DNA of 56,811 bases from Ancylonema sp. (lineage: Eukaryota): positions 62,001 through 118,811 of the forward strand of contig JBFLGF010000011.1 in assembly GCA_050230475.1 (NCBI GenBank). Reading direction: 5' to 3'. Positions 1,450 through 43,028 of this stretch are shown piece by piece. Position 1 is the stretch's first letter, and every line of letters starts with the position of its first letter. A program made the translations under genes and the position numbers. The notes below the pieces were generated by a model. The model had not been told where the DNA came from and did not search any database. It was given only the letters and a program-made list of their open reading frames with translations.

Positions 1450-3350
1450 GACAAACTAACCAGATAAGGTTGTCTACCCAAGGTATGACTCGTCAACCCT
1501 ATTTTTGTAAACGCGAAGAGCAAGTACATAATGCCAAGGCCTTCTCGTCGTCTTTTAGTCGCCAGACCAGTCTGCGTCCCCAGTTTGCACATCTGAATGC
1601 AAACGTCGGATAACGGATAAATGTTGCACACAAAATGTTGCATTTCGTTACGTAAAATCCTCTCCGTATCCCACTATACGGATACATCCCTACGCATGCA
1701 AAGTCGTCTGAAAATTATATTTTATTCTGAGGCTCTACTCCACACGCAGAGGAGCACACCTAACCACATTCACATACAGAAAACCACTTTGCACAACCGG
1801 ATTTGATAATGGCTTCAACATCCAAGAAATCTTTCCCCAAAGCTCTAAAAGTTGCAGCGTTGAAACGACTTCTAATCATGTTGCTGGTGTGACTATGCTT
1901 TCCAGAAATGCGGGGACATTACCCTCGGCACAATCAAAGGCCAACAACTTTTCCACCAATGCCTGCGCGACACGAAACATACCTCAAAGGTCAATATCTG
2001 CCATGGAAGAGTTGAAAGCTACACAAGATTTTGAAGACCTCAGTCCTGACCTTAGACCTTGATGAACACCTCCACAACAACTGGTATCCACAATTCGTGA
2101 AACACACCTTTGTATTCTATTGTGTTGTGGAAATTTCTGTGTAGTTGTAGCGACACTCCTTGTATGTGAGATCATTAGATAAAACGCGCATTTCTTCTCT
2201 TCTCTCTGTGGGTACCTGAGATCATTCATCCATTTGATGCGATTATTTTCTCTACTCTCTGGAGTGTCTCCTCACCTTGAAGTTGTTGTCCTTCTCGTGG
2301 ACACCTTTGCTCTCCAGTCTATCTACCTCCCTTCCTTCCTTGAGGGCGCCACAAACATCCTGAGCTCGGCTCACAATCTCCTGAGGGACACCTGGAGGCA
2401 CGGACACCGACAGCGATCCATTGTCAAGCTTGTGGCCATCTCAGGAAATAGAAACAAACGAAAACGTGTTTAAAGAGTTGCATGTCCGATTCAGCCCAGG
2501 CATGTAAGGATGCGGATCGGCAGTACCATCGACAGAACCAGGTTCCCCCGAGATCTAGGGTAAATAAGAACGACTACTCCACCAACTTCTGCCTCCAACC
2601 TGCGGGTTTATAACACCACCGCTTTGGCCACAGGGCACTGATTTCAGAGACTCCAAAAAGTTCGATATGATCATAATTAAGGCTGTTCTGACTCTATTTT
2701 CTCGTTCCTCCGCCCTTCATTGTACATGGACTCCCCGAAATGGACTCTACCTGCCAGCTGGGCGCAGTGCACACCATAACTTTCCACTGCTTTCCCTGGC
2801 ACCAACCTGAAAACCAATAGGTCACATCCCTTCAGATACTTTCAGTGAAGCCCTGGGTGGCATAATCACCTCCAGCAACAGAGGTATGACAGGCTGCCTC
2901 TACGCAGAGTAACGAAGTTAATGAAACCAGATGATCAGCCGACCCGGAGATGTGAATTCCAATAGTTGAAAATAACTTTCTTGTGCTTACAATGACGATC
3001 TACACAAGATTCGGAATACATCCAGACAAGGGTAAGAAAGGTCCAAAAGCAGTGCGGAGCTTTCTTACCGGTACAGGAACACCAGATCTTCAAGCAACTT
3101 TTGTTTGCGGTCCTTAGTCGGGCGGTTCGAGTCACTGGGCTCCAGGACACTCATGGTGTGGAACGCGATCTGCTTCAGTTGCGATGCAATCCCCCGCAAA
3201 ATACTGAGTCAACATGCAAGCCACCCAAAATCTTCCACAGGGGTTCATAATGTATCCCCTGTTATCGCCCTTGAGGGGGAATGAGAATGGAGCCATCTCA
3301 GAAACCATCTTATGGGGTNAGTTGTTTGGCAAATTTGGTACCAATGGTCA
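1450..3350 (-). mobile_element. Highly decayed Mutator/MULE-like transposase remnant
   Basis: Fragments occur in MULE order on the minus strand, with many stops and frameshifts: KSCLKIWCSC..HCFW..HC (MuDR-like), LFKHVFVCF, ESRENNRIKWMNDL, LMISH..FPQH..RC, TSNM..FNA, and a terminal CTC...H (SWIM-like). Confidence 0.4.
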
Positions 3351-5276
3351 CGTTCTCTGCACCTGGATCGAATATTGGTAGAGAAGGTGTTTCTCCACCA
3401 ATAGTGAGTATTGATTGACTGTTGTCAACAGTTGGTATATGCCAGTTGGTTGTCAACCTAGCGGTGCAAGGGATCACCGGTGGTTTGGTGTTTTGTGGTC
3501 CCATTACAGAGAGTGCCATCGGTGGTTGTGACATCTCCGCCTGTCTGTGGTAATCATGTGGTGGGTGGTGGTATGTCACCTTGAGGTGAGTCAAGTAACA
3601 AATTTCGTCGTCGTGGACAGTTGGTCATTGTATGTCCTGTTTGTCCACAGAAACAACTTTGTAATTCTTTTTCAATGACATCGTATGGTTCTTCAAAATC
3701 AGGTCTGTTTGGTGCCTGATGTGGTGCAGACTCGAGTGGTGTCGCAGTACGGTACCTAAGTTATGTGTTTAGTATAATCGGGCACATCAAATCAAGTGTA
3801 CCAACCCACAAACAGCACATCCATAAATTATCCATACCCACCGATTTGAGAACATTTGCAAACCTCTTTGTTTGTAGCTTTTGAACACACCGCATTTGTT
3901 CATAAACAATCAAACTTCACCATACAGACGTGATCCCCCTCAATCTTTTGCACCCCTCTAATCTGAACACATGGTTTTTCCAACCCAGCGAAAAAACGCG
4001 CACCGTTACAATCCCCCACCACCTTTGCATACCAGAGAAAAAAAAAATTGATATATACGTGAAAGACAAAGAGATTTGATTATCACTCCGTTCATTTCCT
4101 AGCGTGTTACGCACTCCCCCCCCAGAGCACATCTCCATTTCTACTCCCCCATACACACAAATAACGGACTTCGCATTTGTACAAAAAGAACCTCCACAAG
4201 AGTTGTTGCCAGCTGGCAGCTTGTCATATCACCACCTGTCGCCTCCTGCGTTGGGGGGTGAGGCAGAGTTCCCAGAGGCTGCCAAGTGGCAGCTCTACAC
4301 CGAGGATGTCTCCCAGCAGCTGTACTCAGTGCCAGGTGGCACGCGCCAGGTGCAGGCACCTAAGAATCCCGAGAACACCTCATCTGACTGACCCTACATC
4401 CCCAAACACTCGACCCTACATCCCCGAGTACTTCTGCTCCCCAAATACTCCTCCAGAATACCGACATTCAGATTCAGATTCTACATCCCCCGCCCCCCCC
4501 CCTCGCTATGCAATCTCCTATAGAAAGGGCCTCAGTGATGACAATGACTTTCCCCTTCCCCCCCCTAAGTCTCCATGCCTATGTGTACAACAGATCCTGG
4601 CCACAGACTGAGAAGGACTAGTGCGGACAGATGGCAGAAGCAGAGACAGCGAGGGACAGGTGGCGTGTCAGGTGTCGGCTGCAGAGCTGGCCGGTCGGTC
4701 ACAGGCTGACTTGGCAAAACTCGTCATGCAGCACCTCCCTGACAGGCCTGCCACCCGGCGCCCCTCGCTGACGTGGCGATGCGGCGTGCTGACGTGGACG
4801 TTGAAGCCGTTGCTGGGACCCAGGCACCCCTCTGAATGCCAGGCTACATCCGTGCTGACGTGGACAATGACGTGGCAGGCCAGCTGGCGCGCCCTGGTCG
4901 TCTGTCGACACTTCCACCAACTTCGCTGCTGACGTGGCACCTGTTGGCGTCATTGCTGATGTGGCGCAAACGTTGGTGGGGATGACGTGGCAGAAGACCC
5001 GATCGCGAAGATGGCAGTCGCAGTCGTGAACTTCGCTTCTCTCCGAGGAAACCTTTGAATCAAGAGATCTGTTTTGCCTCTCTTCTGCCCCCTCATCCAT
5101 TTCTGCCTCAAAAGCAGCTCCCAACATAGGGCAGGCAGAACACACCAGGCAGAAATCCTCTGCCCCCACCCCCCACCTACTCAAAACCCCCCTACCCTTC
5201 CCCGTTCCTACCCCCAACCCCCAACCCCCTACCACCCCCAACTCCTCCCTGAACCCCAACCACCCCCTTCCCCCCC

Positions 5277-7741: not shown

Positions 7742-7773
<32 letters not shown>

Positions 7774-10231
7774 GCAAAAATCCACGCCCGCTCTACTCAC
7801 CTTCCACCAGCCCCTCCACCCCCAGCGCCCCGCCCAGCTTCTCACTCTGCCCCAACCGTCTCCCCTGCCCCGCCGCCTTCACCAGCGCCGTCACCTCCTT
7901 GTCCGAGTACCGGTTCCGAATTCCGTACACGGCAATGAGGAGCAGCAGAACATGCGACTCCCCAGAGAGCCGGCTGTCGATCGGCTTCTCCAGACTGCTC
8001 ATCCACCGACTCGACAAAACGAACGCGATATCCGCCACCGGGGCGTCGATCTTCACCGGTGCCACGTCAGCGCGTGTGGATGCCACGTCAGCGGGGGGGG
8101 TCGGGGGGGTGCGCAGCAGGGAGTGGAGTGCCTCCAGGAGGGAGATGCAGGGCCTGATATGGGAGCGGTTCCCTCTTCGCTGTAAGTCCCCAAGGACGGG
8201 GATGAATGTGCGAACACCCGTGAGGACCAGCTTGGCAGGGGAGGGCGACAGCTGGAGGGCGGCGGGGAGCACCGCCACGTCAGCGTCTTTAGAGAGGATG
8301 AGGTCGAGCAGCACCGCCCCGTCCCCTCTCTCCACCACCGAGCGAATTCGGGAGGGAACGAGGACCGCAGCTGCTGACGTGGAGGGAGCAGGTGCTGACG
8401 TGGACGGGGCGGCTGCTGCTGACGTGGAAGGGGCAGCTGCTGCTGACGTGGAAGGGGCAGCTGCTGAGCTGGTCTTGCTTGCTGCTGGGCAGGACGGGGC
8501 TGCTGCTGACGTGGGAGGGGCGGCTGCTGGGGTGGCCTTGCCAGCTGTCGAGCCCACTGCCCCTGACTTCGATCCAACGGTCCCACCGTTGCTGGTGACG
8601 GCTGTAGGTGCGCCACCTAGAGGCTTCTCCTTGATCGGCTCCACAGCTGTCATAGCTTCAGCAGGCAGCTGGACACTACGTTCTCCACCTGTCGGTTTCA
8701 CCACGTGCATGCCAGGTGTCGCCTCCTCCTTGGCTGTTTCGGCTTGACGTGCTTGGCTAATGTCCGCAACATTCGGTAGAGAGTCGTCTACATGCGTGCC
8801 ACTTGGCACAGCCTGGGGCTCTGCATCAACAGCAGGAGATAGTACCGTGCTAGCTGGCACCACCTCCTGGACCGGTACCTTGCCAGCTGGCACCACCGCC
8901 TGGACCGGCACTTTGCCAGCTGGCACCACCTCCTGGACCGGTACCTTGACAGATGGCAGAACCGCCTCCTGATTTGCTGCGTCAGGTACAGGTTCAGGAG
9001 CAGATTCTGTATCCATATCCTGATCCGTTTCAACCTCTCTCCCGCCTTCAGCCTCTACCTCGATATCAACTGCAGGGGCCGTATCAGGTTCACGTTCATC
9101 GCCCTTCTCTTCCGATAGGGTCTCTGTTTGCACTACTACTGTCTGGTCACTAACCGTGCGGTTCTGTGCATCCGGATACCCGCCTACGGGATCACCCTGT
9201 GGCACCGGTTCTACCCCTTCTACTGCAACGGAAGTTTCCAAGACAGTCCCCGTCTCTTGGTCGGTGGGTGCCGGGGTGGGGTCCACAATTTCAGCCGCTC
9301 CTTCTTGGGGATTGGGGGACTGGGGGGGACTGGGGACGGGCGATTTCGACGCAGGTGAGGGTGGACCTGCATCGACAACCGCCATCAGCACTTGCCTCTC
9401 CTTGGCGACAGCGGCGAGGGCATCTGCCTTGAGTTTCTGAACCCTGCCTCTGGCGTCCGTCTCCTTTGCCTGCAGTGCCTCCTCTTGCTGACAAACATGT
9501 GTCAGACGTTTCTCTGCCTCCTGCTCCTTCTGAGCGACATCTCTCAGGCGGAGAGCCACCTCCTCCTCTTTCTGGTTCACAGATGCCAGAAGACGTCCAG
9601 CCTCCGCTTCTCGTAGACAGACCGTTACAAGACGATGGTCTACGTCCTCTCTTCTGCACAGAGCTGTCGAACGAAGACGCAAGTCCTCCTCTCCTAAGCT
9701 GACTGCTGCCACGCGTTGATCCACATCCTGCCAGCGCTCTAACATTTTTTCCCGCTCTGCAACCATCTGCGCCTCAAACTCCTGACTCCTTGCGTCCCAG
9801 AACTTGCCAGCCCGAAATGTCAACTCGCTCATTACCAGTCTCTTCAGCTCTGCCACGTCCTCTTGACAGCTGCCGAACAAGTCAAGCTGGGACTGGAGGG
9901 ATACTAAAGCCGACGCGATCCGACTTTCGACTCGCTCCAAAGCGGCGGTTAACATGGCGCTACCGCGCGTATCAGAATCCGAACCGTTATTCTCCACAAT
10001 TGCGCGGTCTGGTTCTGGCAGCGCAGCAACGATCTCATGTATTTCCACGTTTGACTCGTCAGCTCCACCACCCAGAAACACTAGTTCATCATCCACGCCA
10101 ACATTAGCGTCTGCATCGCCCTCGCTCATACAGATGTAATCCTCGCCATCAGTTCTCGCGACGTCACCTTCAGGTGCTGTTTCGGAAATTTCGACCGGTT
10201 GCCAATTCTCCATGCAACTCCCGTTTTCCAT
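5277..10231 (-). CDS. FRIGIDA-like protein. Exons ~10231-7801, 7370-7189, 6733-5277, with one apparent frameshift in a G-run at 5599-5608
   Basis: Frigida-domain motifs: SPAKLVLTGVRTF, RPCISLLEAL, LLLIAVYGI...LGGALGVEGL|GIVKQM...DPKKALREYL, and ELEATKAAIECILDCDLENEYP. GT-AG junctions keep the frame. The N-terminus is coiled-coil-like and the C-terminus is R/E/G- then P/M/G-rich. Confidence 0.8.
8370..8520 (-). repeat. Coding tandem repeat, ~24 bp unit (PSTSAAAA)
   Basis: Repeated GCTGCTGACGTGGA(A/G)GG units. Confidence 0.85.
8851..8948 (-). repeat. Coding tandem repeat, 33 bp x3 (KVPVQ[E/A]VVPA)
   Basis: Three copies of AGCTGGCACCACC(T/G)CCTGGACCGG(T/C)AC. Confidence 0.9.
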
Positions 10232-10566
10232 CTCGCAAAAAGAACAGAGCACTGCCTACTCCCGGCTCGCCTTTCTCAGAAGCTCTAAAGTCGCGCAGTC
10301 ATGAAAGCGGTGATCTACAGCAAGAGTAATGCACACAGCTTCCTTCGATAACTCAGTAGCCCCATAAAAAATGAGCTTCTGCAATTTTGGTCCCCTTTTT
10401 GAGCCGCAAAAGAGGCTGCAGCAGCCAAATGGAATTGCGAACCGCAAGCTCGAATATGCTAGCAGCAAGCCCGGCGAAAATGTAATACCGCCTTCTGCTC
10501 AGGGTTGTGACCTCCGCATTTTTCACCGCGGTAGGTAAAGTACCTTCCTTGCCAACCGCACCCAAC

Positions 10567-11396
10567 CGTTTCGGCTGGGCCCGACCGGGTGGCTTCTTCC
10601 CAACTGCATCTCAACCGCCGCCTGGTTGGGAAGGCGCCGCCCGGGTGGGATGCGGTTGGGCGGTCGGCAAATTGGCGAAAAACAGACGATAATTTCATCA
10701 CATCAAATTCAAAAGTTGGGTATAAAAAAATTACAAGTCCAAGAAGCACGTCAAACCAAAATCGAAGCATCAAAGTTATTTGCGACACCAATAGAATATG
10801 TATGGGAAGGCTTCTCTGCCACCGAATCCTTTCCTTCCTTCTCTGTTCCCCGGCCCTTGCATTACAACTCATATGATGTTCGTCCTGTACGTCTTGTCTT
10901 TTTGAATTCTTCTCCTAAACAATAAATGTATTTTTAGAGTAAACAACATATACGACAATGTGAACGCATTGCTATAATGTCCCCTTGTAATCCCCACATG
11001 ATCGCTCAATTAAAATGTGGAGAAGTGTGGAAAATCAAATAGAAATGGAACTTTACGAGTTTGATAACAAGATGTACTTCAACAAACACGATATATATGA
11101 AATAACACATCCTAAATGAGTATGGAATGGTTCACAAAATGAGCACGTGAATAGTAATAATTAGTCGTAGGAACCGAAAGGTATCCGAAAGGAACCTTTC
11201 ACGTATGATTTAAATATATTGAAAGAAGAATAAATCATAAGAAGTTATACGCCATGCTTATTCCCAACCGCACCCAACCGCAACCCAACCGCAACCCAAC
11301 CGCAACCCAACCGCTCCAACCACATCGCCAACCAGGTGGGGGTCGCCAACCAGGTGGGAGTTGGCCAAAAGCCACCCGGATGGGCCAACCGTTACC
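10567..11396. mobile_element. Non-autonomous DNA element with imperfect ~40 bp TIRs and CAACCG subterminal repeats
   Basis: CGGCTGGGCCCGACCGGGTGGCTT..CCAACT (left) pairs with AGTTGG..AAGCCACCCGGATGGGCCAACCG (right). The core is AT-rich and there is a (GCAACCCAACC)n array at ~11263-11320. No TSD identified. Confidence 0.5.
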
Positions 11397-11828
11397 TTAG
11401 GAGCCACCGCGCGGTTGCGCGGCTGGCCGCCGCGCGTTTGGCGCGGTTGGCCGCCGCGCTGCTGGCTGGGCTGTTTAACCCTGCTTCACCCTTTTAGCCC
11501 TGAATAATCCTAAAAACCCTGATCAACTCCAAAATACTTGTGAAAACTAATATGACGGAAGCGGAACACCTTTGGACATAGTATTAATTGACACGTCATA
11601 GTTCAGGAATTCACTTGAAATGGAAGCTCGGATGCTCGGATGCTTTTTTTAATATAAAAGTAGACAGGTTATAGACACAATATAATTATGGATAAGTTTC
11701 TATGTACCCGGAAGTACCCTTGGAAAACCGTCCCGGCGGCGAAATCAGCCGTCTTTAACCCTCGTTAGCCCTCTTTAACCCCTTTTAACCCTGATTAACC
11801 CTGATTGACCCTGGTTAACCCCGAAAAC

Positions 11829-12832
11829 CATAGATGGGTCTTTGGAGTGCGTGTCCCGCACGTGTTCCGCGCGCGCGCGAAAATCTCGCGCACGGTGCTG
11901 ACCCATAGGCGTTAAAATTATATTATTGTTGCCCGGGGGCGGGGGGGTACTTCCTGCACCCCAGGGGTGCCGGGATGTTTCCAAATTCATGAAATGTATT
12001 TGGTGAACCGGTTACAACGTGGCAGTATTCAATTTAGGGCCTAAGACGTTATACAGTGCTCCCTCGATATAACGACCCTCGATATAACGACAACCTCGGT
12101 ATAACGACGGTTTTTAGGAACTTTTTTAAAATCAATATGAAATCGCCCTCGATATAAGCATAACGACACTCTATATAATGACAAATTATTTCAGAAATTT
12201 GTTATTGAATGTCGTTATAATGTGTATAAAACGCTATTGTTTGCAGATAACAATGTATGGAAATCGAGAAAAATATAGAACCGCACCTCAAATTTAATAT
12301 AGAATTCCATACAGGTCCAATAGAATGTGCGTGTTCGGTGTTACTTTGTAACGACCTTAATACCTCCCCAACTCTCCTCGTAAAAAGTTGTGGTACATTT
12401 TGTCCATCCGCATGTATTGGTATCATGACGCACTTGTATAGCTCGTATATCAATACACACGCTGAATTTAATAAATATGCCAAGGCAACTTACTCTAGGA
12501 AACACATAATAAACACATTTGCTTATTCACTTTGCTTCATTCGTAAAGTCCCTCGATACAACGACATAGATTTCAGATTCTAGTAGTAAATGTCGTTATA
12601 CAGTGTATAACGACACTTTTATGGATTTTTTAATTGTCGTTATATCGAGAGAGCACTGTATCGAACTTTATTACACTACAAAATGGGTCAGTACTCACTA
12701 CTTAGTCACACATCGACGTCCGAAAACGATTACAAAAATTGTCCCGCTGCGGCACGCGTGCCGCACGCGTGCGCTCGCGCACGCGTGCCGCGCGCGGGCG
12801 CAAATCTTGCGCACGGTGCCGACCCATCTATG
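11829..12832. mobile_element. Putative TIR element (CATAGATGGGTC...GACCCATCTATG) hosting a nested MITE
   Basis: Perfect 12 bp inverted ends and GC-rich subterminal repeats (GCGCGCG..AAATCT.GCGCACGGTGC.GACCCAT twice). No TSD seen. Confidence 0.5.
12054..12658. mobile_element. Tc1/mariner/pogo-type MITE (family A)
   Basis: TIRs CAGTGCTCCCTCGATATAACGAC / GTCGTTATATCGAGAGAGCACTG with TA on both flanks. Internal sequence is shared with 43029-43928. Confidence 0.9.
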
Positions 12833-15810
12833 CCCTAGGGTTATCGGCGATAACCCTAGGGTTATCGGGATTATTCCAGGGTTAACCCGTAATCCTAGGG
12901 TTTTGACCTTGTTATCGGGAGCAGGGTTCAATTATGATATTTTCCTCGAGGTTACGGGTTAAGGGTTATCATGGTGAAAGGTTAACCCCCACTGTCACGA
13001 CGTCTGAGATCGTTAGCTATTTTACCCCTAAGCTATTTTACCCCTAATATCTACTAAATCTCTCCCTATATTAAATCACGTCTGCGCCGCACCAAATCAA
13101 AAGTTCCGCCGCACTACAACTTCCGCCCCGCTCGCCGGTCCCGCTCCCGAGCTCCAGTTGTCAGCCTGCGCCCCCGCTCAACATTAGCATTTGTTATCCG
13201 TCGATCCGACGTGGCACCTTTGTACTAGTCAACAATCAACTTGTGATGACTTGTCATAAATGTTAGCCGTCGATGAATATCCGACGATAGATATTGTAGA
13301 TAAGACATTTGCGCGTGAGGCATATTTCCCGAGATTGAATATGTAGATCGACACGCGTCTAGCGTCGTTTGTAGAAGTTTGAATACAACCTTTGTACTTC
13401 GAACTCTGAATTCAGCTTTCGCTGAATCTAACGCTGAAGAGACTTGTTGACTTACAGACATTTTCTGGAAGTGGATCGACTAAGTTCAGGACTAGAACTC
13501 AACGATAATAGACTTCTCCATGCAAATACACGCAAAGCAAAGAAAACTTGCAAGCTTTGGTGAGACATAATTAATTTGAGTGTTAGCCGAAAGTCGGCTC
13601 ACATACTCCGAGCAATTTTTGGTACAATCGTGCCCAGCCCCATCAAGAGGGTGACATGTATGACAAGGCATCCACGTCGGCAGACTCTAAAGGATAATTC
13701 CACTCTATTCGAAAATTATCACCACTTGTTGATATTGTCGAATCTAAGCCCTTAACTTGGTACTGACACTTGTACACATGTCTAGTTTTCTCACACCAAT
13801 TTACTTAGCAACTTATTGATACTACAACAAGTTATTGCAATATCAATGAAAACAAATAACAAATCGACAACCCGTCGACAAATGCGACATTATTCATTAT
13901 AAGAGAGACTTGCATTCCACTTCGTCACTATTGTAAATTGTATCTTGTGTGTGTGGCTTTGCTTTGCTTGCAGTCTGTTGCATCTGCATCCAGTCACTTG
14001 TTATTATCATTGTTTTGTTGATCGAGCTATCGCTCTCAGTACTTTACTATCGTTGCCTGCAACGCAGCTTCGTGACTCACACATTTACAACGACGCAAGT
14101 CGGTGTGCAGACTCACAGTCTTTTTGCTGCTGATTACAAGCACTGCAGACGTACACATAAATAGTTGCTCGCTGATCGAGAGCTATCGTTGTTCTTAGTG
14201 TACTATTGTATCGCATACTCTGCATTTAGAATCTTGTAGAGCTATCGCGTTGTCAGCTTGCCCGCAGTGAGAAGTTGCCGAGTCAAGGCGACGTTCGTGC
14301 CGTCGTTTAGATGATTGTTTACAATCACTGTCGCGAGTCAAGCGTACAAAACTCCTTAGATTCAGCGAAAGGGCCTCTGGCCATCAACTTTCCGAGGATT
14401 CTACATTTACAAACTTACAAGGCGACCAGAAGTTGTGCGTCGACATCTGAATAAATAGCTGAAATTACCAGATTTTTTTTTCCCTGCCATCAATCTTTTG
14501 TGCTTACAGCGCTGCGCGCTATTGCAACTAGAGGTAGAAAAATTGTTCGTGCGCATTTTTTTCTGTGAACTTGGTTCAATTCTGAGCATCGATTTACAGA
14601 ATTATGGGAATTTTGTGAAGAATTGTTTCGTGTAGGATTGCCCGGTTGCAAAATTTGTAATATCTGCAAAAATCTGTGAAATCTGCGAAATCTATGAACT
14701 TGTCATATTGCCAGGATTCAAATCTTATTAATTAAAAAAAAAAAAAAAAAAAGTGTGTTGATTTGCATCCGGCATCTTAGACAGCGAGCAATCTTTGTTG
14801 TTGTTAGGTTGTTTAGATCTGCATCATATCCTGGACACTTGTGTGCACACTTGCATCATTCTGTATCGATTTTTGCATCTGGCATCTGGCGAGTTACTAT
14901 TTTACTGCTGTCACGTCCATAGCGACACCCCAATTTCTTACACAGAAGGATCCTATTGCGGGTCAATCAACATTTGTACACGATACGACCCTTCAGCGGT
15001 CAACAACTTTACACACCAAAAAAAAACTTGTCTGATTGGATCAGCAAGTTCGGTAGTCCGAAGGAAAACCCGTGCCTCAGAGCCGTCACCTTGAGACTTG
15101 CCAGCTCGTTGGGATTGCGCAGGCGGTTCCAGTCCGTAACTTGCAAACCAACGGGAGGGTCAATCCTTGCTAACTTGTCTGACCACTCCACGGAGTGTTT
15201 TTGCAGTAGTGAGGCCGGTTTTATAAACTGCCTTTTTCAGACGCTTCTATCCGGTATAAATCTTACCCTGTGTACCACCTTCGGGTTGCACTCTCCCCAT
15301 CTCTTAACTTGAGAGGCTGTTAACACCCCGTGATTTATCACATTCCCCTCGAGTGACCCGCACTTGGAAGCTGTCTTACACCAGTCTTTGTAATTTGGAA
15401 GTGCTCTTGCAAAAGACATTTCTCGACTGCATTGACTACTCCCTGTCATAGATTTTTCATATAGTTAGTTACCAGTGGTTCGCGTACACTGAGCTCCGTC
15501 TTTATCCCCTGTGAGGACCTGGTGCCCACCTGATCTTCCTATAAAGGTTACACCTGAGATCCAATCTCTTTCCCCCTCTGAGATAGCCCCACGGCTCATA
15601 GATTTACCACGCCTATCTGGGGGTACCACGTGGTGCCAGAACCCTTACTTACTGCGTATCGAACGCGGTGGGCTTGTTACACCACCCCTTGTCATAGGTA
15701 CACGCTCCTACACAGGAATTTTGCTTGCAAAATCAACTCATCTAATTCACATTTGAGCTGAAACATTGCACTTGGTGTTTTGAATAATCATTTTTGCAGT
15801 TCAACTGAAA

Positions 15811-18800
15811 GTGTTCATTCAAGAACATTTACAAGGAGCGACATCTCCGAGTGGAGGAGTACAACTTCTGCATCGAATTCGTCGATTCCTGCTACGTACA
15901 ATTTACATTACAAACTCCTTACTACTACAAAACTCCTTCGAGCCAATACTGGAACCTGCCTACATCAATCTAGGAGGGGAAGTACAGGGTAACTCGATCG
16001 ACTCGAAGTCATCGACAGATCTAGTGAATCCGCGCTTCAACTCAAAGATCGGCATACAAGCTATCAACTACGATGCATCGCAGAGTAGTTCCATCTTACA
16101 CAAAACCACAATTATTAGAGGTTGTCAGCCCTCTAGCTGCACTACGCAAAATACCTACAAGCGCCAAATTAGTGCACGCCATTGATACTACACCATGGAA
16201 GAGCGCATTCACAGAGCAAGAAGTGCGCATTGATTTGATCCAAGAGCAGCTGGAGTACACTAAAGAATTTGCCGTTGTTTCTGATGACTTTCGGTACATG
16301 CGTCTAGGACAATTGCATGTCACACTCGAGGAAGCAATGGAGAAGCTTCACGACCTGCCTTACGAGGAAAGGTTGCAGAGTGAAGCAACATTGCTATTCT
16401 CAAACGACAACGAAGGAAACGCTAGATAAATAATCCTCCATATTCGACGTCGATTCAAATTCAAGAAGCAGAAGACGAATGGTATAATGAGCTCCGGAAA
16501 AACATTCTACCAAAACTTGCAACAGCTCCTGTTCAAGAGACGCCGGCTTACACTTTTGTGGCTAGTGCTCCAACCTCAATTTCAAAAAAACATTTCAACA
16601 ATTTTTTTGAACAATGGACTACACGACAAGTAGCAACACAAGAACAGATGGATCGAATGGAGTCACATCTTCTACGCATATTGAAACGACTAGATACTCC
16701 ACCTGGAAACAATTCAGAACAAGTGGTACCTCGCCTACCATCACCACCGGAAAAGTCGTGTTTGAAACCACCGACAGCATTCTCGGTATTACCAAAGGTG
16801 GGCGCATTGCCAGTAGTAGCCAGTAAAGCCCGTGCAACGGCAAACTGGACTATTATTACAATTTCAAATGCCACGGATAACTTGCGCATTGGAGATGTGC
16901 CTGCACAAAACGCTATTGTGGATTCGGGCGCAGGCAATGTCATCATTGGAAAGAGTTTAACGAGAGCTTTGGGCATCACACCATAGGACGTAGAGCCTAA
17001 CATTGCATATGCAACGGCATGTGGAAATATTCACACGTCGCTTCGTACAACCAAAAAGAAATTTCCGATCAGCATTGGCAAAGGTGCAAACCAAGCCATT
17101 GTATTTACAAATTTACATATGTCACCATCGGATGCATTTTCGGTGCTTCTCGGGAATGCATTTCTGGTACCGATTGGAGTAGTCATCGATACATGGACTC
17201 ATCGATTTCATTACCATGTCGATTGGGATAAAGAAGGCAAGCAAATGGCTTCCATCGGCATTGCTCACCACCAGCCTCACCCAGCTGCCAACCCAAAACC
17301 AGCTCAATATATGGAAATGGAAATAGGCACATCCAGTGACATATTGGGTAGAGAAGATGAAACAATATTTGTGTCAACACATGAAGACGAAGTACTGGCG
17401 GACTACGAGTTTCATGTAGTAGAAAATAATTTACAACATCGCATGGTGTCGATCATTCCTACAATACCAGAGGATGAATTTGAACCAACATTACAACATT
17501 GGGAAACGAATACTCTCGTGTACCTCGCAATTACATGTCACACAGACATTCGAGAAGCTATACGTCCAAAACTGGAAGCGGCCGGTCGCACACTGGCGCA
17601 AGTTTTAGAGAAAACAGCTACAATACGATTGACGGAGCTACGCCTCAAAAGCATGAAGCTCCTTCGACAAGCAAAGACACGGGTGTTGAACCTCCAAATC
17701 GCACCATCTCCACGACCTTGGCAAGGAATACCAATTCGTGACGCTGTTCCAATACCACCACGAGCCAATGCACGATTTGATCCAAAGGCCATGCAACAAG
17801 GCCTTCATGTTTGGGAACCATTTGGTGGATCAAGTTGCAGTGGTCTGGTCTCAGTCATGGAAGCAGAGTACCCGGTGCGTTGTTTTACACACACCGATAT
17901 CTGCAAAGATGCTTGACACACAACACGCACATTTCTACCAAAGGCGCAAGTACGTTACCCATAAATTTTACCAACATCATCGATTCGGGGTTTTGACACG
18001 AGACTCGAACATGATATAAGTCAAATTTCCAACGACCACCTCACAGCATTGGTCAAATTCAAAGGACCAATTGACTACATTGTGGCAGGATGGGAATGTC
18101 AAATGGTCACTCGAGGAGGATTCAAGCTAGGGTATAAAGATGAACGATTCCCTTACTTCTTTGATTTAATACGAGCAGTCAATCATTTGACAGAAATACA
18201 AATTTACTCCCCGTTGTTCGTGTTTGAAAATAGTTACCCGTTGGGCAAACTCAATCAAGAAATTGAAGATACAACAATCCTTATCACTTGGGAACACCTG
18301 CAGTAGTAGACGCTGTCAGTCGCGGAAGTACAGCCTACCGACTTCGATGCATCTGGACCAACTTCATCACGCCACAAATGTTGAAAAATGCTTTACCCGA
18401 CGAGCCAGTTCTTCCACCATTGGAATTACATTTGGAAAGGTATCACTCACCTTCTCCGGTTTTACAAAACGATACTCCTCCGTTCGCCACCGTCAACAAG
18501 ATTGGTGAAAAACGCCGAGCTGTACCAACATTGGTGTCGTTTCCTGAGAGTTACCAATTCATCTTGCAACCAGATGGAAATCCAAGACCCGGTATGGTGT
18601 ACAATCATACACGCCATGATTGGAAATCTCCGAACATGTGGGAAAGAGAACGTATGATGGGATTTGTGTCCGGCGACACTAATGCGGAGGGACTCAACGA
18701 CTACCAACGCAAATAATTGGTCGGTCAATGGATCGCAACATGATGAAATGGTTAGGAGGCATGTTACTAGCCGTTTACAACACACCCCTCAAAGACGCAG

Positions 18801-19150
18801 CACCTAAATCACCTAACCAATGGGGATCAGCATCTACGATTATGGGGGGAGCGTTTTACACGGTTCCCGAAGATTTCCATCAATTACAATTTGATAAAGA
18901 ATCAGGTGAATTCTTCGACAATTAAGAACAGCTCTTTGAACCAACAACGATGGATTGTCAATATTTGACAGACACATCCCCGATTCTGGAACACATAATT
19001 CCACAAAAATTCGGCAACCTATCACATGGTTCCATTTTACCCGTCGACGATATAGACGACCCTCCGACACTGAACATTAAATAGAAAATCGGTGCACAAC
19101 TTACAAAGGAATTGTTTGAAAGGTTCAAATATCACAAAGACTCTCACGAG
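15811..19150 (+). mobile_element. Decayed retrotransposon polyprotein (probably Ty3/Gypsy-type): gag-like region, aspartic protease, DNMT3-like methyltransferase; RT/RH/IN absent
   Basis: Retropepsin AIVDSGAG (DSGA 16921-16932) ... VLLGNAFL, in the same frame as the start of a C5-MTase domain. Multiple stops and frameshifts. Both boundaries are approximate. Confidence 0.75.
17800..18775 (+). pseudogene. DNMT3-like C5 cytosine DNA methyltransferase domain inside the retroelement ORF
   Basis: Motif I EPFGG (17815-17829), motif IV GPIDYIVAGWECQ (Cys 18097-18099), motif VI FVFENS (~18217-18234), motif VIII DAVSRGSTAYRLRCIWTNF (RLR 18339-18347), motifs IX-X ERERMMGF..GDT...QRK*LVGQ-MD. Order and spacing parallel DNMT3 (GPFDLVIGGSPCN; FENV; DAKEVSAAHRARYFWGNL; EMERVFGF...RQRLLGRSW). 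Confidence 0.88.
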
Positions 19151-19337
19151 GACTCATTGCGAGTGCCAGCTGGCACATGCAAGTGGATGACATTTATAAC
19201 CAGAAGAGCCTGGGTGTGATCGTAGAAGACAGCGAAAGCTTCGAGACTTCACGGCATTCCAGAGTGGACAGCATGCAGAAGGCCATTTTCCTTCCGCTCG
19301 CAAGTACGGAATTCGAAGCGGAAATGGTACTGCTGAC

Positions 19338-22300
19338 CTGCTTGATGTAGATACTCTTCCCAGAGTAGTTCGGTCCCGTGATGACACACACTCGGCCTGC
19401 CAGGCAAGTAGAATTTTGCTTGGGATCATGCATGCCATCAAAATTTAGATATGTAAAGAAAGATTGAAAATCATTGCATTCACAGCGCACAGTCTCCATG
19501 CGACTGTGATAGAAACAAGAGGGGAACGGGCTACTCCACCGGATTTTATGCGTACCCTCTGAGCCAATATCCGTGCTGTTTGGCACAAATGTGTCCACCG
19601 TCATTTCCTGCAACAGGTGCCTGAACCAAAAGAGCAAAGAACCACGTAGCAGTATTCAAAACTGTACGGCGATTGCAGGCAGCCACGTCCAAGGATCAGA
19701 AGAGAATGTCTCCGGTGTATGGTGTCCATGCTCTCATCTGTGGCAACACTGTGGTGCAACAACGAGTCACGACTCATTGTGGAAATGAGTGTTTATGCAC
19801 TGCATACAGTGCACTGCTCAAAATCTGCACTCTACCGTCCCTTTCCTTCTCCTCCAAAAAACGATACTCAAAGCAGGAGTACTTTTGAGTGTTTTTGAGT
19901 GTTCTGTGGTTTGTACCGACTACTTAAGAGTACTACAGTAGTTGCAATGATTATAGACTAGGATGTAAGGCTGACTGACTTCTACATGTCATCGCATATG
20001 TCTTTCATCAGAAACTATTTCAATAGGTCAGGGTGGAAAACCTTTCCTCCTGATATACCTTCCATTCTTGATGTTTATGACGTTTGATCTGGACAAAGTC
20101 GGCCGCTTGTACCGATACTCCCGCGCACAGCAAGCCAGGCTCACCAAGCTATGCATTCAGACAACATCATAAATGCCAGACAGTCAGTTTCAAAGCATGG
20201 AGTTGCTGAACGTCCGCGAAACTGAGGCCAGCAGTGGATGATCCTGTGCCAGATTCTTAGTGCCCCATCTTCCACAACCATGGGGAACTGCCATGCTCTT
20301 GCCATTTCTGGCGGTAAGAGTGCCCAGCAGTCTGCAGACATCATATTGTTCTTTTATTCAATTATAGTATTTTACGCAGATTTGGAAGTGATTGCTGATC
20401 AGGATGTCGGTTTGAACATCAGAAAAATAATCAATATCGGCAGTATCAGCAAAACCAGCAATATCAGCAAACTTATTGCCGGTCTAGGCCAAGGATTCTG
20501 TTCTACTTCTTGTTCTTTGTCTGGGCTGTAGCCAGTACAATGAGGTCGGTACAAAAGCATCTGACGGGGACTGTAACCAACGCACCAGTCTATTTCAGAC
20601 GCAGCCGCAGCTGCTTTCTGCAGGCTTGCACTGTAGCGGAGGATTCTTTCCTCCAGGTCTAGAATGACAGCGCTTTCCATGTCTGCACTCGAGACACAGC
20701 TCATCGTATTTCTGTTTGCAGCAGGGCACTGATTGGTTTGTAATCTGGCCACATGATGATCAGGTCGGCCTATTATGGATTCATCAATACCTATGATTTT
20801 GTGCAAAATATCCCCGAGGACCTCATCGAGTTCTTTCGTCTTTGGAGTTTGGAAGAAGGTTCCACGCCCCAAAACATCATTGCCCTCAAACTGCACCAAA
20901 CGCGCATCATATGGAATAACATGAAACCTGGTCCACGCCAGAAACAGTCAATTAAAAAACGTTTCTATCCAAAACCAGTACTTTTCTCGATATCTCTTAC
21001 AGGGGAAGGGTACTAAAAAATCATCAGCCGATACAGGTCTGCCAGGTCTGCAACAGAGCTCCTCACCCAAGTCAGCCGGTACACTATCCATATCTGCCAT
21101 CTCTTGCAAATATGCCTTTACATTTACACCAGACTCTTTTAAAGGAAACAGATGCAACACCTTACTGCCTTGGACCGGACACGTGTCTGTCTAGGGTCCC
21201 ACAGCCATGGCAACCCATCTTGAACCCAAAGGATACTGGCCAAACTCACAGAAAATTTGACGCCCGGTTGGCTTTCCAGATTATGAAACAAATCTCTCAC
21301 TCCTTCCACACGGAGTAGGAAACCTGTACCAGCCACAAACCCTCAGTCACCAAGGGGGGCAAAAAAGCGAGAGCAATGAAGTCCTGAACACCTAACCAAC
21401 GTGTACATACCAACTTGAGGAATGTATTCGATGGTGGCATGCTGCTCCTTGCAAAGCCTGCTGACGTTATCCGGCCACTGATCCAATTCCGCAGCTGCCC
21501 CCTGCACACAGCCGAAGGACAAAATTATGTACCAAGCAGGTGGATCTGTGTACCAACCGCTGCAAGCAATGCTACAGACGTCGTGACAAGCTGGTGGCAT
21601 AAGCCAGAGTGGATACAGATTCTACCCGGTCTACTCTCTTGCTTGTTCTGGCCCGGAAAGGTGCCTACAACCATAGACCAGGGAACAAAACCTATCTTGA
21701 AACTAAGCCTACACAAGGTGTACACCAAATGCCACTATAATAACATGCCAGTTTTCCCAAAGCAGGTTTTGCTAACTTACTTTCTGCAGGAAGTCTGAAA
21801 GTCCCTCATAAAGATGTTTGAGTTCGTCTAGCTGTGCCAAGAAACGGATGCACCGGCACCTCAGAACAAATCATAATACAAACTAACGACCTCTCATATT
21901 CAGTTGACTCTTGCATATAAGGCGTATCAACGACCTGCATGATAGACCATATTATTGACGGAAGTCTGCACCGTACCTCTTCACAAATCCCAAGTGCTAC
22001 GAGTGTCTCCTTGGTTTCACCACAGGTCTGGTCGAAGTCCAGGACTCTGGTGATCTGCGCCACTGGAAAAATCCACTCATGTCCCAAACGAGCCAAGGCT
22101 GCCAAGGCTGCTGATAACTAGCGTAGCTTCCTGTCAAATGGTAATACCGCCGAAAGGAAAAAACAACAGCTACATAGACAGCAGGTCATGGTGAGCTGCT
22201 TGATTCATACAATATTTTTGTTTCTCCTACACCATTCAAGCATGGCATCTTTGTCCGTTCGAGCACAGAACCCATACCAGTTCTGCAACATACTTGATGT

Positions 22301-22728
22301 CTTCGTTGATATTCTCAAAAACCTGCACAATTGACAGAAATGGTACAGTAACCAGGGGTTGATGTAATCTTTAAGCAGACGCATTTAGGGCTGCCTGTAA
22401 GTCAACCCTATAGAGATCCTGGAAATCCTCTACGGCATACCTTTTGAATGACTCTGAGCTGTGTCAGGTTTGTGTACTCCTGCTGCTGCCCAACTGCCAT
22501 ATGGCACAGCTCCCGAATGTGGAGAAGGTGCACAAGACTCTGCAGAGTGGAGGACTGTTCAAGATACAACGTCTAAAAAAAGTAGGGCTCCTTGAGTGGA
22601 AGCATGATGTGTAAAGAAAGAAATTGTAGCAACAAAAGCTTGCGACAGCATACCTCCTGTAGTTGCTGCCAGTCCTTCTTTGTGAAGAGAAGGTTTGCAG
22701 AACTTAGCTTCTGCATGTCAGACACATG

Positions 22729-22762
<34 letters not shown>

Positions 22763-25377
22763 ACACACACACACCCACCTTCAGCCTGCTGTTGAGGCAT
22801 ACCTGCAAAGTTATGCCAAACTTTCAAAATGAAAATATATTTTTTGCCGCTACAGAACGCATCAGTAGTGCTGGCTGACTCACATGCAACAACTTTGGCA
22901 CGTCTTTGATATGCTTGAGGATCTCCTGTAGTTGCCTCATCAGGTCCGGGAGTTCCTTCAGGTAGTCAATCTGCATTCGAGCTGGTCAAGGAGGACTGCG
23001 ATATGTTTATGAGATAAGTACGAATGCCGAAGTGCTTCAAACTAGCAGAAACGAGCCAAAAGCCAAATTGCCAGTCTTCTTGTGAGGATACGGTCGAGTA
23101 ACGATCTTGAATCATCTCCAAGCTGACGATAGGTCGCAAGAACCAAAGTCTGTCGAGTGCAAAGCAAACGCTCAGGTTATAACTATGCATGGCAAACAGC
23201 AAAGCTTCTAACACAATCAGATCACAACCAGCATCGTAGGGGTAGGAGCATCTTCAGGTAGGTCCATGAGTGAGGTCATTATGAGCCCATATATATCATA
23301 CTTCTTAGTATCATAGGAGCATCGTACCTCAGCATACGGCGGCCGGCTTGTGTGACGCACTGCAAAATCAGGGTGCTTAACTTGTCACCGTTCTGAATGT
23401 CTTGCTGACTCTAATATCATGTAACTTTCGAGTATTTGCCTGACATTCTCAAGGCTGTGAGAAGCTGTTGCCCCTGAACCAACAGATTGTCTTCTGGCTG
23501 ATGCGTCCTCACCTTATGGTACACGGAAGGTACAACACACAATAACATAAATTGACACATACAAGGACAAAAGAATGGTCTATACCTTGTTCATGATGCC
23601 GAACACCGAGAAGCTGCAAAGCGGCACGAGAAACATATAGAGCTGTCAAGTCATTATGAGGTGCCATAACTGTACGAATGTATGAAAGACGCTGCAGCCA
23701 CACAAACGCAAAAATCAAAATATTGCTATAAAAAGTGTACTAAGAATATTTACCCTTCTTTCGAATTTCCGATCCCCATCGAGCTGGGATGCTTCTCCGT
23801 CTGAAATATCTGGAGGGCGTCGTAGGTTGTCGCATCCAACGTCAAGTAGCCATCCCTGTACAGAAGAACAGACTCTGAAGGGGTCTGGGAAAGCAATTGC
23901 GGCTTAAACTTGCATCTTGCCACTCAATTGCACTAATTCACGAGATAAGACGCAAGACATCATGAGGCCATTTTACCCCCCCATGTACATGGAAAGCTGA
24001 GAAATCTCCCCAATTTGGAGAGGAGTTAAACTCCCATCATCATCGCCATCTGGGGCGTGATCAAGGATCATTTCCTGCTGCAGGATAGCTAACAGAGCTC
24101 CCATCGCACGCACTTGTACACTGTTATCGAAGTTGATCATATACATCAGCTGTCCAAACCCACAATAATCACCATCAATGGGCAACTGGAAAGTTTCAGT
24201 AGCTGAGGATAACTTTGCCAGGCACAGCAGATCTGTTGCCATACCATTTGTATTCTTTGCTTGTCTGTCAGATCCTCTGGCATGGTGGACCACGTCACGT
24301 ACGCCAGTCTGGAAATGAGACAATATTGATGAACACCATTGTGAGCACCTTCTGGTTAAACTGAAAGAGAGTATGTCAAGTGCGTTTTTCTTTGCCAAAA
24401 TGCTTCACAGAGTCATAAACACATTTACGGCTTTGTAAGATCAGCTTACCTATGCTTTGCCAGTTCGTAGCTGAACGTGGAGTTTTTTACTAATTTCACG
24501 TCGAACTCCTGGCCGTCCTCGTACACTGGTCAACGAGAGGGTCCAAGCGAGATACACGTGAATACAAATACTATTGCAGCAGCCAGCGCAATTCTTGTGG
24601 AAATGTTGGGCAAGTACCAGGTGCTTGAAGGGCCGTGAGGAATTGTTCGTCAGCCCTGGTGCTCCCATATATTATTGTCGGCTCCACCTGAAACTTTACT
24701 GTATCAAGCAGCAGGTGTAAAAATTGTCAAAGTAGAGAGATATCCCCTTCAAGAGGGATCTAAGACATAGACTTGATGGTGATGTGAACTGCTAACAACA
24801 CGGTCAACATACATGATTGCCCGCAGCCATCCCAGCACCCCTATGAAGTTTATCACGCTATAACTCACACAGCTGGAGACACGGGAAATTATCCCCTAAC
24901 GCATCTTCACACGCCTCCAGCCCATACAAATGACAGGCACTCGCATCGTAGTACGCCACACCTAATCTGAAACAACGCAGATGAGATTCTCTTGAATTCA
25001 GTTGACCTCTCTACTGGATGCAACAGAACTTGATCACGTGCAGGCACTTTAACTGAAACCTTTGTCGCTCAGATACAGAAGTGCTGCCATGTCACCGGAG
25101 TCACACTGTTGGAATATTCGATTGCTGGCCAATCATTGGTTCTGAGATGTTATTTACCTCTGCCCTTGCATTAAACAAGCGAGATACACCTGCACATACA
25201 CGAGACGAAGGGATACTGTTGATGGCTAGAGGATTGTACATCACTCCTCTTCCGAATCTTCATTTCGATGAGACCGTGATACAGAATCCACCGACTACTG
25301 ATGGCATAAATGATAGCGATGTACTGACGCACCTGATTTCCGTCCTCAGACAGACTGACGCCATTGCTGGATACCAT
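19338..25377 (-). CDS. MSH5: MutS homolog 5 (meiotic crossover factor). Multi-exon; the visible part ends just after Walker A
   Basis: GT-AG exons encode MVSSN..Q|VYLACLMQGQR|LGVAYYDAS, VKLVKNSTFSYE, QVRAMGALLAIL, LDATTYDALQIFQTEKHPSSMGIGNSKEG|FSVFGIMNK|CVTQAGRRMLR|LWFLRPI, TPKTKELDEVLGDILHKI, RHLLQEMTVDTFVPN and ITGPNYSGKSIYIKQ. All match plant MSH5 as I recall it. Confidence 0.92.
22730..22774. repeat. (CA)n microsatellite in an MSH5 intron
   Basis: Direct observation. Confidence 0.95.
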
Positions 25378-25999: not shown

Positions 26000-26897
<898 letters not shown>

Positions 26898-27019
26898 GTA
26901 ACTAGTTACGTGGCCTTTCAAGCCTTAGAACAAAACCACTTTTTGAGAGTTCTTTAGGGTCCGGAAATCAGAGGAGTTGATAACCTCAAAAATCAAAAAT
27001 CCCTTAATTAAGAAAAGAG

Positions 27020-42945: not shown

Positions 42946-43028
42946 TGCAAAATAGTTTCATGTGGCGAAGAGTTTCTTATGACGAAGTTTCTCATATCAA
43001 GGTTTGATTGTGGAAGGACACCTCGATG

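What the first reader, a model, noticed from the sequence alone, without database searches (positions are those of the whole stretch)
16860..18800. Retrotransposon polyprotein carrying its own DNMT3-like cytosine methyltransferase
Seen: a retropepsin (IVDSGA...VLLGNAFL) and the C5-MTase motifs I, IV and VI lie in one reading frame from 16558 to ~18290, broken only by point stops. Motifs VIII-X follow after single frameshifts, and no introns are needed. Established (from recall): DNMT3-bearing Ty3/Gypsy elements were reported in Klebsormidium and DNMT5-bearing retroelements in Symbiodinium, so the concept is rare but not new. Inference: this is such a family, perhaps a new lineage or host, able to methylate its own cDNA or reshape host methylation.
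Basis: partly seen in the sequence, partly recalled or inferred. Interest (0 to 1): 0.9.

Follow-up and report, generated by a model that had tools for sequence, protein, structure and literature searches.

The report
Algal retrotransposon carrying DNMT3 before RT
This is a broken, cut-short copy of a repeated algal jumping gene that encodes its own DNMT3-like DNA methyltransferase right behind its protease; most relatives found with this layout have a likely leaky stop codon after the enzyme, which would make it far more abundant than the copying enzymes.

Summary
A retropepsin and an unpermuted, intronless DNMT3-like domain share one frame (three stops, two frameshifts), and the catalytic residues are kept. 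The copy is dead. It ends at 19108, about 250 nt before RT would start, at a junction with the host MSH5 gene that two laid runs do not share, so probably a misjoin. Relatives show the whole element: Gag-PR-DNMT-RT-RH-IN-PHD, with A-coding-B-A-B repeats in one locus as described for KnitGypsy-Dnmt3 (de Mendoza 2018). A sister RT clade has RT-RH-DNMT-IN-PHD instead. Named sources of the window's PR-DNMT layout are Mesostigma, Coleochaete, Closterium and Marchantia. The other layout occurs in chlorophytes. New here: 25 of 30 PR-DNMT-type loci carry a stop between DNMT and RT in a plant-virus readthrough context (TAR-CAR-YY or TGA-CGG), against 3 of 204 and 0 of 112 for decay stops. The DNMT would then be made at Gag level. 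The window's own copy shows no such signal, so whether its subfamily does this is open. The scan found this element kind before, repeatedly, in peat-moss DNA. Verdict: new variant of a known kind.

The parts
16028..16884 (+). Coding-like region upstream of the protease (frames 16028-16426 and 16429-16884); position of Gag, but no Gag or CCHC match
   Evidence: no Pfam or Atlas hit; P0026 is 73% identical over 16648-16899
16885..17238 (+). Retropepsin (IVDSGA ... VLLGNAFL), one stop at 16984
   Evidence: Pfam PF13975 E 2.7e-7; family profile 16900-17238
17239..17796 (+). In-frame acidic linker between protease and methyltransferase
   Evidence: Open frame 16987-17916; matched by P0001, P0003, P0007, P0027
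17797..18285 (+). DNMT3-like domain, motifs I-VI, in the protease frame; stops at 17914 and 17962
18288..18734 (+). DNMT3-like domain, motifs VIII-X, after a one-base frameshift; second shift near 18716-18730
   Evidence: tblastn of relatives; family profile columns 164-310 of 321
18725..19108 (+). DNMT-to-RT linker; stops at 18923 (not a CARYYA or CGG context) and 19082; ends in KIGAQLTK, which resembles the W-x-x-G-x-x-L-T motif just before RT in relatives
   Evidence: 9-residue match, E 0.15, suggestive only; P0298 has WKFGDKLT
19109..24404 (-). Host MSH5 gene, 5' part; the element is cut at 19108/19109 inside the intron after the Walker A exon
   Evidence: MutS_V positions 1-19; Walker A at 19376; X1/X2 contigs lie on 19109-22043 and run on 1052 letters unlike the window
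12850..16100 (.). Very high-copy repeat upstream, with a nested 13446-13903 insertion; may be the element's 5' repeat and leader, or a separate repeat (not resolved)
   Evidence: Summed contig depth 60,000-320,000 against about 124 on MSH5 in X1; joints 13446 to 13932/14022
3320..3700 (-). Second, diverged remnant of the same kind (zinc knuckle plus protease start), ending at the window's single N (3319)
   Evidence: tblastx E 9e-7 to the main copy; P0299 knuckle match E 0.004, P0037 E 7e-10

Best explanation
This is a decayed, truncated copy of a repeated retrotransposon whose protease is followed in frame by a DNMT3-like cytosine methyltransferase, and which, like its relatives, likely continued into RT, RNase H, integrase and a PHD finger. 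Shown: the domain order in the window and in relatives, the kept catalytic residues, purifying selection on the DNMT of relatives, and an in-frame stop in a readthrough-type context between DNMT and RT in most PR-DNMT-type loci. Inferred mechanism: the RNA is translated mainly as Gag-PR-DNMT. RT-RH-IN-PHD is added by stop-codon readthrough in most subfamilies and in one open frame in others. The protease would free the DNMT inside the particle, where it would methylate the new cDNA before integration, so that the new copy arrives already marked like host DNA; the PHD finger would steer integration. I put about 0.9 on the identity of the element, about 0.7 on readthrough in the relatives, about 0.35 on readthrough in this window's subfamily, and about 0.45 on cDNA methylation as the function.
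For: Of 54 metagenome loci, 38 have the window's order (PR-DNMT and/or DNMT-RT), 9 have RH-DNMT-IN and 7 hold only the DNMT. Of 23 PR-DNMT loci with at least 900 nt downstream, 20 have RT about 600-700 nt after the DNMT. L006 is near-intact Gag(CCHC)-PR-DNMT-stop-RT-RH-IN-PHD. The family profile hits DNMT3A at E 1e-21, DRM at 1e-9 and M.HhaI at 1e-6. An AlphaFold model of the L006 domain (pLDDT 92) has only DNMT3 entries in its 30 listed Foldseek rows. DNMT dN/dS is 0.10-0.16 in 4 of 4 pairs of relatives. L036 has A-coding-B-A-B repeats. Stop context: 25 of 30 loci (24 in the RT frame), 6 of 9 DNA subfamilies; background 3 of 204 TAA/TAG and 0 of 112 TGA decay stops. L006, L007 and L033 have no AUG between the stop and the start of RT. 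Several Marchantia copies end at 1278-1281 aa; the representative ends 84 aa after the DNMT. Summed contig depth over 16100-18900 is about 8,400-12,800 against about 124 on MSH5 in X1, which points to many copies, though the tool warns that it is no copy number.
Against: The window has no RT, RH or IN and no recognisable Gag; the pre-RT motif match is weak. No locus from the window's own DNMT subclade (support 1.0 with P0001, P0032, P0287, P0015) could be fetched, so its downstream part is inferred from relatives about 30-40% identical. The window's linker stop at 18923 has no readthrough context, and two subclade proteins (P0287/P0294, P0015) stop earlier than the window's frame does. Seven PR-DNMT-type proteins run into RT with no stop, and 5 of 30 loci lack the signal. 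Twenty of the 30 loci are one subfamily. The element is not CpG-depleted (observed/expected 0.91-0.94, against 0.58-0.75 in MSH5 and 0.54 in a Copia remnant), which argues against long-term heavy CG self-methylation. KnitGypsy-Dnmt3 gave no methylation in yeast.
Confidence: 0.78

Rival explanations
1. The window's subfamily is a non-autonomous, RT-less element (or a domesticated PR-DNMT gene family) that borrows RT and integrase from a partner.
For: No RT, RH, IN or Gag in the window; 40 proteins end after PR-DNMT; 3 of 23 PR-DNMT loci with room show no RT.
Against: The conserved in-frame stop would explain why those proteins end there. The window is cut at a junction that X1/X2 contigs do not share, just at a pre-RT-like motif.
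Confidence: 0.1
2. Same element, different job: the DNMT acts on integrated copies or host chromatin (self-restraint or flank marking), or only binds DNA, rather than methylating cDNA in the particle.
For: No CpG depletion but CHG observed/expected 0.75-0.83; no yeast activity for the K. nitens enzyme; de Mendoza et al. list such alternatives (section 11).
Against: Catalytic C, EN and RxR are kept in 131-134 of 134 rows, so a pure binder is unlikely. Fusion to Gag-PR would put the enzyme in the particle. The unrelated SymbioDIRS-Dnmt3 methylates CG de novo.
Confidence: 0.3
3. The cut at 19108 is real biology: a strain-specific insertion or rearrangement in an MSH5 intron that removed the element's 3' half and the middle of MSH5, not an assembly misjoin.
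For: The junction lies in an intron. X1/X2 differ from the window at 9 of 2935 letters there, so they may be another strain.
Against: The 15.8-kb stretch between the two MSH5 halves holds a whole FRIGIDA-like gene and starts at the only N. MSH5's middle motifs are missing from the window, while X1/X2 contigs run on past both joints, by 1052 and 78 letters.
Confidence: 0.3
4. A host DNMT3 pseudogene or retrocopy that lies next to a protease by chance.
For: The DNA_methylase hit alone is below cut-off.
Against: The same PR-DNMT fusion occurs in 28 loci and more than 40 proteins across streptophytes, and it is multicopy and intronless.
Confidence: 0.02

Closest known systems
KnitGypsy-Dnmt3 of Klebsormidium nitens (de Mendoza et al. 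2018, PMC5890265; I saw the abstract, passages, sections 9, 11 and 15, and passages of the held supplements, not the figures)
   Same: Gypsy-type element with an intronless, unpermuted DNMT3-like domain, kept catalytic residues, Ka/Ks below 0.2, and DIRS-like repeats (seen here in L036).
   Different: The host is another alga, and the lineage reaches Mesostigma, Coleochaete, Closterium, Marchantia and, in the other order, chlorophytes. There are two domain orders. The authors say the DNMT shares one ORF with RT and RNase H (review file passage), whereas most PR-DNMT-type loci here have a stop between them. I could not see Fig. 4c, and no named K. nitens polyprotein turned up, so its order is unknown to me.
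SymbioDIRS-Dnmt3 and SymbioLINE-Dnmt of Symbiodinium (same paper)
   Same: Retrotransposon-borne C5 methyltransferase; the DIRS enzyme is DNMT3-type and methylates CG de novo in yeast.
   Different: These are DIRS (tyrosine recombinase) or LINE elements; relatives of the window's element carry an rve integrase and a PHD finger.
EpiLTRs of Euglena and Cymbomonas (bioRxiv 10.64898/2026.05.21.726589; I saw the abstract, first fifth and passages)
   Same: Ty3/Gypsy-like elements carrying a cytosine DNMT plus a chromatin reader.
   Different: Their DNMT is sister to DNMT4 and comes with DAM and a chromodomain. Here it is DNMT3-like with a PHD; no DAM or chromodomain family was listed for the proteins scanned.
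Type I (UAG CAR YYA, TMV) and type II (UGA CGG, TRV) stop-codon readthrough; two-ORF GAG-PROT / RT-RH-INT plant elements (PMC2754532, PMC7026636, PMC6317226; passages only)
   Same: The same stop contexts, and the same split of the polyprotein after the protease region.
   Different: Here the abundant first product would include an enzyme cargo, the DNMT. The largest subfamily has CAA CCC, five of six consensus letters. Readthrough was not measured.

Membership tests
Gypsy-DNMT3 (KnitGypsy-Dnmt3 kind) | DNMT3-related, unpermuted, intronless C5 methyltransferase domain | tested here: met
   Colinear motifs I-X without introns; the family profile and a fold of relative L006 are closest to DNMT3A/B/C. 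No tree with host DNMT3 or DRM was built.
Gypsy-DNMT3 (KnitGypsy-Dnmt3 kind) | Key catalytic residues conserved | tested here: met
   The window keeps IV C, VI EN and VIII RxR; family 131-134 of 134 rows. Motif IV reads WEC here, as in 79 of 134 rows (E where P is usual).
Gypsy-DNMT3 (KnitGypsy-Dnmt3 kind) | Gypsy domain set (RT, RNase H, rve integrase) in the same element | tested here: inconclusive
   Absent from the truncated window copy; present in 20 of 23 PR-DNMT loci with room (RT) and in many polyproteins.
Gypsy-DNMT3 (KnitGypsy-Dnmt3 kind) | DNMT in the same ORF as RT and RNase H | tested here: inconclusive
   The window is cut before RT. Met by 7 PR-DNMT-type proteins and by the RT-RH-DNMT-IN type; not met in 25 of 30 PR-DNMT-type loci, which have an in-frame stop.
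Gypsy-DNMT3 (KnitGypsy-Dnmt3 kind) | DIRS-like A-coding-B-A-B terminal repeats | tested here: inconclusive
   Seen in L036; L002 shows the A repeat at both ends; none in L012 or L014. The window copy has no 3' end.
Gypsy-DNMT3 (KnitGypsy-Dnmt3 kind) | Purifying selection on the DNMT (Ka/Ks below 0.2) | tested here: met
   0.12, 0.10, 0.16 and 0.12 in four pairs of relatives, three with near-saturated dS; not measured on the window's own subfamily.
Gypsy-DNMT3 (KnitGypsy-Dnmt3 kind) | Common descent with the K. nitens sequences | not tested
   No K. nitens polyprotein was named among the 82 hits or the 30 proteins looked up.
Gypsy-DNMT3 (KnitGypsy-Dnmt3 kind) | Methyltransferase activity | not testable with these tools
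   Needs an assay.
Host DNMT3 | Multi-exon, low-copy gene without retroelement domains | tested here: not met
   Intronless, fused to a protease, summed depth about 70-100 times that of MSH5 in X1.
DRM | Circularly permuted motifs (VI-X before I-V; recalled) | tested here: not met
   The order is I to X.
SymbioDIRS-Dnmt3 | Tyrosine recombinase instead of integrase | tested here: not met
   Relatives carry Integrase_H2C2 and rve; I did not scan the loci for a recombinase.
Programmed stop-codon readthrough (type I/II) | In-frame stop followed by CAR YYA or, for UGA, CGG, in the window's copy | tested here: not met
   The linker stops at 18923 and 19082 lack the context; they may be decay.
Programmed stop-codon readthrough (type I/II) | The same context conserved in relatives | tested here: met
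   Exact CARYYA in L001, L006, L007 and L033; CAR-YY in 19 of 20 loci of the L002 group; TGA CGG in L040 and L054.

The most novel reading that the evidence does not exclude
A green-plant-wide Gypsy lineage with a PHD-tipped integrase has carried an active DNMT3 since before land plants, has moved it between two slots of the polyprotein, and in the streptophyte branch, this alga's subfamily included, uses stop-codon readthrough to load the methyltransferase into particles at Gag-level numbers, so that every new copy is methylated by the element itself before it integrates. Intact-looking copies in Marchantia make this testable in a model plant.
Probability: 0.25. Interest if true: 0.8.

Novelty: new variant of a known kind. 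Interest (0 to 1): 0.52.

Why it matters
Why retrotransposons keep the enzyme that hosts use to silence them has been open since 2018, and the only plant example gave no activity in yeast. The layout found here makes a prediction: if the DNMT sits before a leaky stop, it is made in structural-protein amounts and goes into the particle. Near-identical open Gag-PR-DNMT copies in Marchantia polymorpha put the test in a transformable plant. These ORFs also sit among annotated 'hypothetical proteins' and can inflate host DNMT counts. The window's copy itself is dead and adds mainly a new algal host and a distinct DNMT subclade.

Tried and rejected
No whole genome is held for the window, so intact copies could not be searched directly. 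The word-indexed search with the MTase half found nothing among 463 candidates; phmmer then did. Close relatives were not found in viral contigs or prokaryote genome contigs; one search gave 47 loci with only distant matches (E 4e-8 or weaker), which I did not use. No RNA holder was listed. No long terminal or inverted repeat belonging to the element was seen in the window. The region upstream of the protease gave no Gag match. A first pre-RT profile was cut too late to hold the motif and was redone. The RT-RH tree is a quick tree without bootstrap or outgroup, so it shows two groups but not which order is older; the DNMT tree is FastTree with a midpoint root. A Copia-plus-DNMT 'third architecture' (P0127, P0150) was set aside: P0150 is a gene model with a protease fragment and DNMT behind a Copia pol and may be a nested insertion. 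Paper searches for this layout and for readthrough in such elements listed no paper describing PR-DNMT-stop-RT. Most listed papers were seen only as listings, and the library lacks most subscription journals. The three held supplement files of PMC5890265 gave no domain order; its figures and the supplements of the 2026 preprint could not be seen and may bear on the novelty claim.

Full report
Observation. The frame +16429..18303, read with X at stops, holds a retropepsin (Pfam gag-asp_proteas E 2.7e-7) and the first half of a C5 methyltransferase (DNA_methylase E 0.0032, 17.4 bits, under the cut-off). It has stops at 16984, 17914 and 17962. Motifs VIII-IX continue in frame 18267-18716 and motif X is split by a second shift. 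Relatives align colinearly over both halves (E down to 4e-43), so no intron is needed. The window keeps the majority residue at every catalytic motif checked. Other copies in runs X1-X3 differ at the stop at 17914, and some differ at the break near 18716, so at least part of the damage is private to this copy.

Host and copy number. No genome is held. The window's biotin synthase groups (SH-aLRT 99) with three unnamed proteins, apart from land plants and Klebsormidium, among 23 proteins that I picked from the 120 listed hits and their clusters; no chlorophyte was in that set. With the FRIGIDA-like gene at 7793-10255 (streptophyte-specific by my recall), I infer a streptophyte alga other than K. 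nitens. Runs X1/X2 match single-copy DNA at about 99.7% (9 of 2935 letters differ). Summed contig depth in X1 is about 124 on MSH5, 8,400-12,800 over 16100-18900 at 80% likeness and 5,100-7,400 at 95%. The tool warns that this is no copy number; I take it only as a sign of many similar copies.

Where the copy ends. After the DNMT, a 128-codon linker ends in KIGAQLTK at 19108, resembling the motif that precedes RT in relatives (9 residues, E 0.15). From 19109 on lies the 5' part of MSH5 on the minus strand. Its 3' exons lie at about 2280-3200, and the middle motifs are absent from the window. X1/X2 contigs cover 19109-22043 and 717-3318 and run on by 1052 and 78 letters that fit nowhere in 600-24500. 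The stretch between starts at the window's only N. The junction is therefore probably a misjoin (or strain-specific), and the missing RT says little about the family. Upstream of the protease no Gag was recognised. The very high-copy repeat at 12850-16100 may or may not be the element's 5' end.

The whole element, from relatives. phmmer gave 315 hits at E<=1e-3, of which 150 were listed. Pfam on 32 and then 22 of these and their cluster members showed two layouts. A scan of metagenome contigs with six PR-DNMT proteins gave 54 loci: 38 with PR-DNMT and/or DNMT-RT (type B, the window's), 9 with RH-DNMT-IN (type A) and 7 with the DNMT only. Of 23 PR-DNMT loci with at least 900 nt downstream, 20 have RT. 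Complete type B is Gag(CCHC)-PR-DNMT-RT-RH-IN-PHD (L006); complete type A is PR-RT-RH-DNMT-IN-PHD (L024). On a quick RT-RH tree of 67 rows, A (54) and B (13) are the two sides of one branch (SH-aLRT 100); no root was available. Named type B sources are Closterium, Coleochaete scutata, Mesostigma viride and Marchantia polymorpha; named type A sources are Haematococcus and Monoraphidium. L036 has A-coding-B-A-B repeats, L002 the A pair, and L012 and L014 none. The window's DNMT falls in its own subclade (support 1.0) with P0001, P0032, P0287 and P0015, and no locus of that subclade could be fetched.

What the enzyme is. A profile of 10 family sequences matches DNMT3A at E 1e-21, DRM at 1e-9 and M.HhaI at 1e-6 among PDB sequences. 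The L006 domain folds at pLDDT 92, and all 30 listed Foldseek rows are DNMT3A/B/C (best E 4e-19). dN/dS of the DNMT is 0.10-0.16 in four pairs of relatives, against 0.14 for the protease and 0.60 for the spacer between DNMT and stop in the L006/L007 pair. The family has kept a working-looking DNMT3; the window's copy is dead.

A conserved stop in relatives. Many type B proteins end 9-174 residues after the DNMT. In the DNA, 25 of 30 type B loci holding both the DNMT end and RT have a stop followed by CAR-YY (23) or TGA CGG (2), 24 of them in the RT frame. By DNA similarity these loci form 9 subfamilies, 6 of which have the signal. The misses are L021, L032, L044, L045 and L049, decayed or shifted. 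Decay stops inside domains have such contexts in 3 of 204 and 0 of 112 cases. L001, L006, L007 and L033 match the TMV consensus CAR YYA exactly; UGA CGG is the type II signal (PMC2754532 and PMC7026636, passages). L006, L007 and L033 have no AUG between the stop and RT, which disfavours re-initiation; splicing is not excluded. Against generality: 20 of the 30 loci are one subfamily, with five of six consensus letters; seven type B proteins run into RT in one ORF; and the window's linker stop at 18923 has no such context.

How it most likely works. Shown: layout, residues, selection and stop context. Inferred: the RNA gives mostly Gag-PR-DNMT and, by readthrough, a little of the full polyprotein; the protease releases the DNMT in the particle; the DNMT methylates the new cDNA; the PHD finger guides integration. 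De Mendoza et al. proposed cDNA methylation for DIRS elements, showed CG activity for SymbioDIRS-Dnmt3 and saw none for KnitGypsy-Dnmt3. The window's element is not CpG-depleted (0.91-0.94) but is somewhat CHG-depleted (0.75-0.83), which counts against heavy CG self-methylation. I put this function at about 0.45.

Known or new. The kind is published: KnitGypsy-Dnmt3 (PMC5890265), cited as streptophyte Gypsy-DNMT3 in a 2026 preprint and in PMC12344493 (passages). This scan has noted PR-DNMT-RT elements many times in peat-moss DNA. A look-up with the words readthrough and stop codon found no note on this family that holds them all, and nothing was noted for this genome or by sequence. My paper searches listed nothing on the two domain orders, the chlorophyte members or the stop, but I could not see Fig. 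4c or most subscription papers. I file it as a new variant of a known kind, not a proven member, because RT, the repeats and the link to K. nitens could not be tested on this copy. Interest 0.52: a dead copy of a known kind, which led to a testable expression mechanism in its relatives.

Noticed in passing
window 2280-3318 and 19109-24404 (-): MSH5 is split by 15.8 kb and lacks its middle exons; X1/X2 contigs run on past both joints, so the assembly is probably misjoined here.
   Followed up: partly
window 42020-42200 (-) and 37884-38100 (+): Further remnants of the same element kind: a DNMT fragment and a PHD-region fragment (tblastn E about 1e-4; no Pfam hit).
   Followed up: partly
window 13446-13903: Nested insertion in the upstream repeat; contigs of X4 carry an initiator-tRNA-type primer site (my recall) beside 13445, as for a solo LTR on the minus strand.
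   Followed up: no
window 7793-10255 (-): 820-codon FRIGIDA-like ORF (PF07899 E 1e-12) in a GC-rich island; 5468-6853 (-) may be a further exon.
   Followed up: no
window 600-20500: The window differs from X1/X2 contigs largely by G>T and C>A (12 and 9 of 48 places in X1), an odd spectrum that may reflect assembly errors or oxidative mutation.
   Followed up: no
P0354, P0358, P0370, P0373: RT-RH-DNMT-IN-PHD elements are annotated in the chlorophytes Haematococcus lacustris and Monoraphidium neglectum, beyond the streptophytes named in print.
   Followed up: partly
P0312 and its cluster (Mp_4g09160, Mp_Vg00370, Mp_Vg00540, Mp_5g06330, Mp_5g06860): Marchantia has several open Gag-PR-DNMT ORFs of 1278-1281 aa annotated as hypothetical proteins, some on the V chromosome.
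   Followed up: partly
P0127, P0150: Copia-type RT followed by this DNMT; may be nested insertions or a third capture.
   Followed up: no
P0374: 1915-aa protein with a distant DNMT (27%) and RVT_1, outside both types.
   Followed up: no
window 27121-28306 (-) and 54523-56672 (-): A non-LTR-like remnant (by eye) and a Copia RT/RNase H remnant.
   Followed up: no
window 31775-34460 (-): Intron-containing biotin synthase gene, used to place the host.
   Followed up: yes
window 26.4-26.7, 36.4-36.8, 37.3-37.7 kb; 12055-12650, 25950-26900, 42200-43900: Long (AT)n arrays and a dispersed short repeat family with inverted ends.
   Followed up: no
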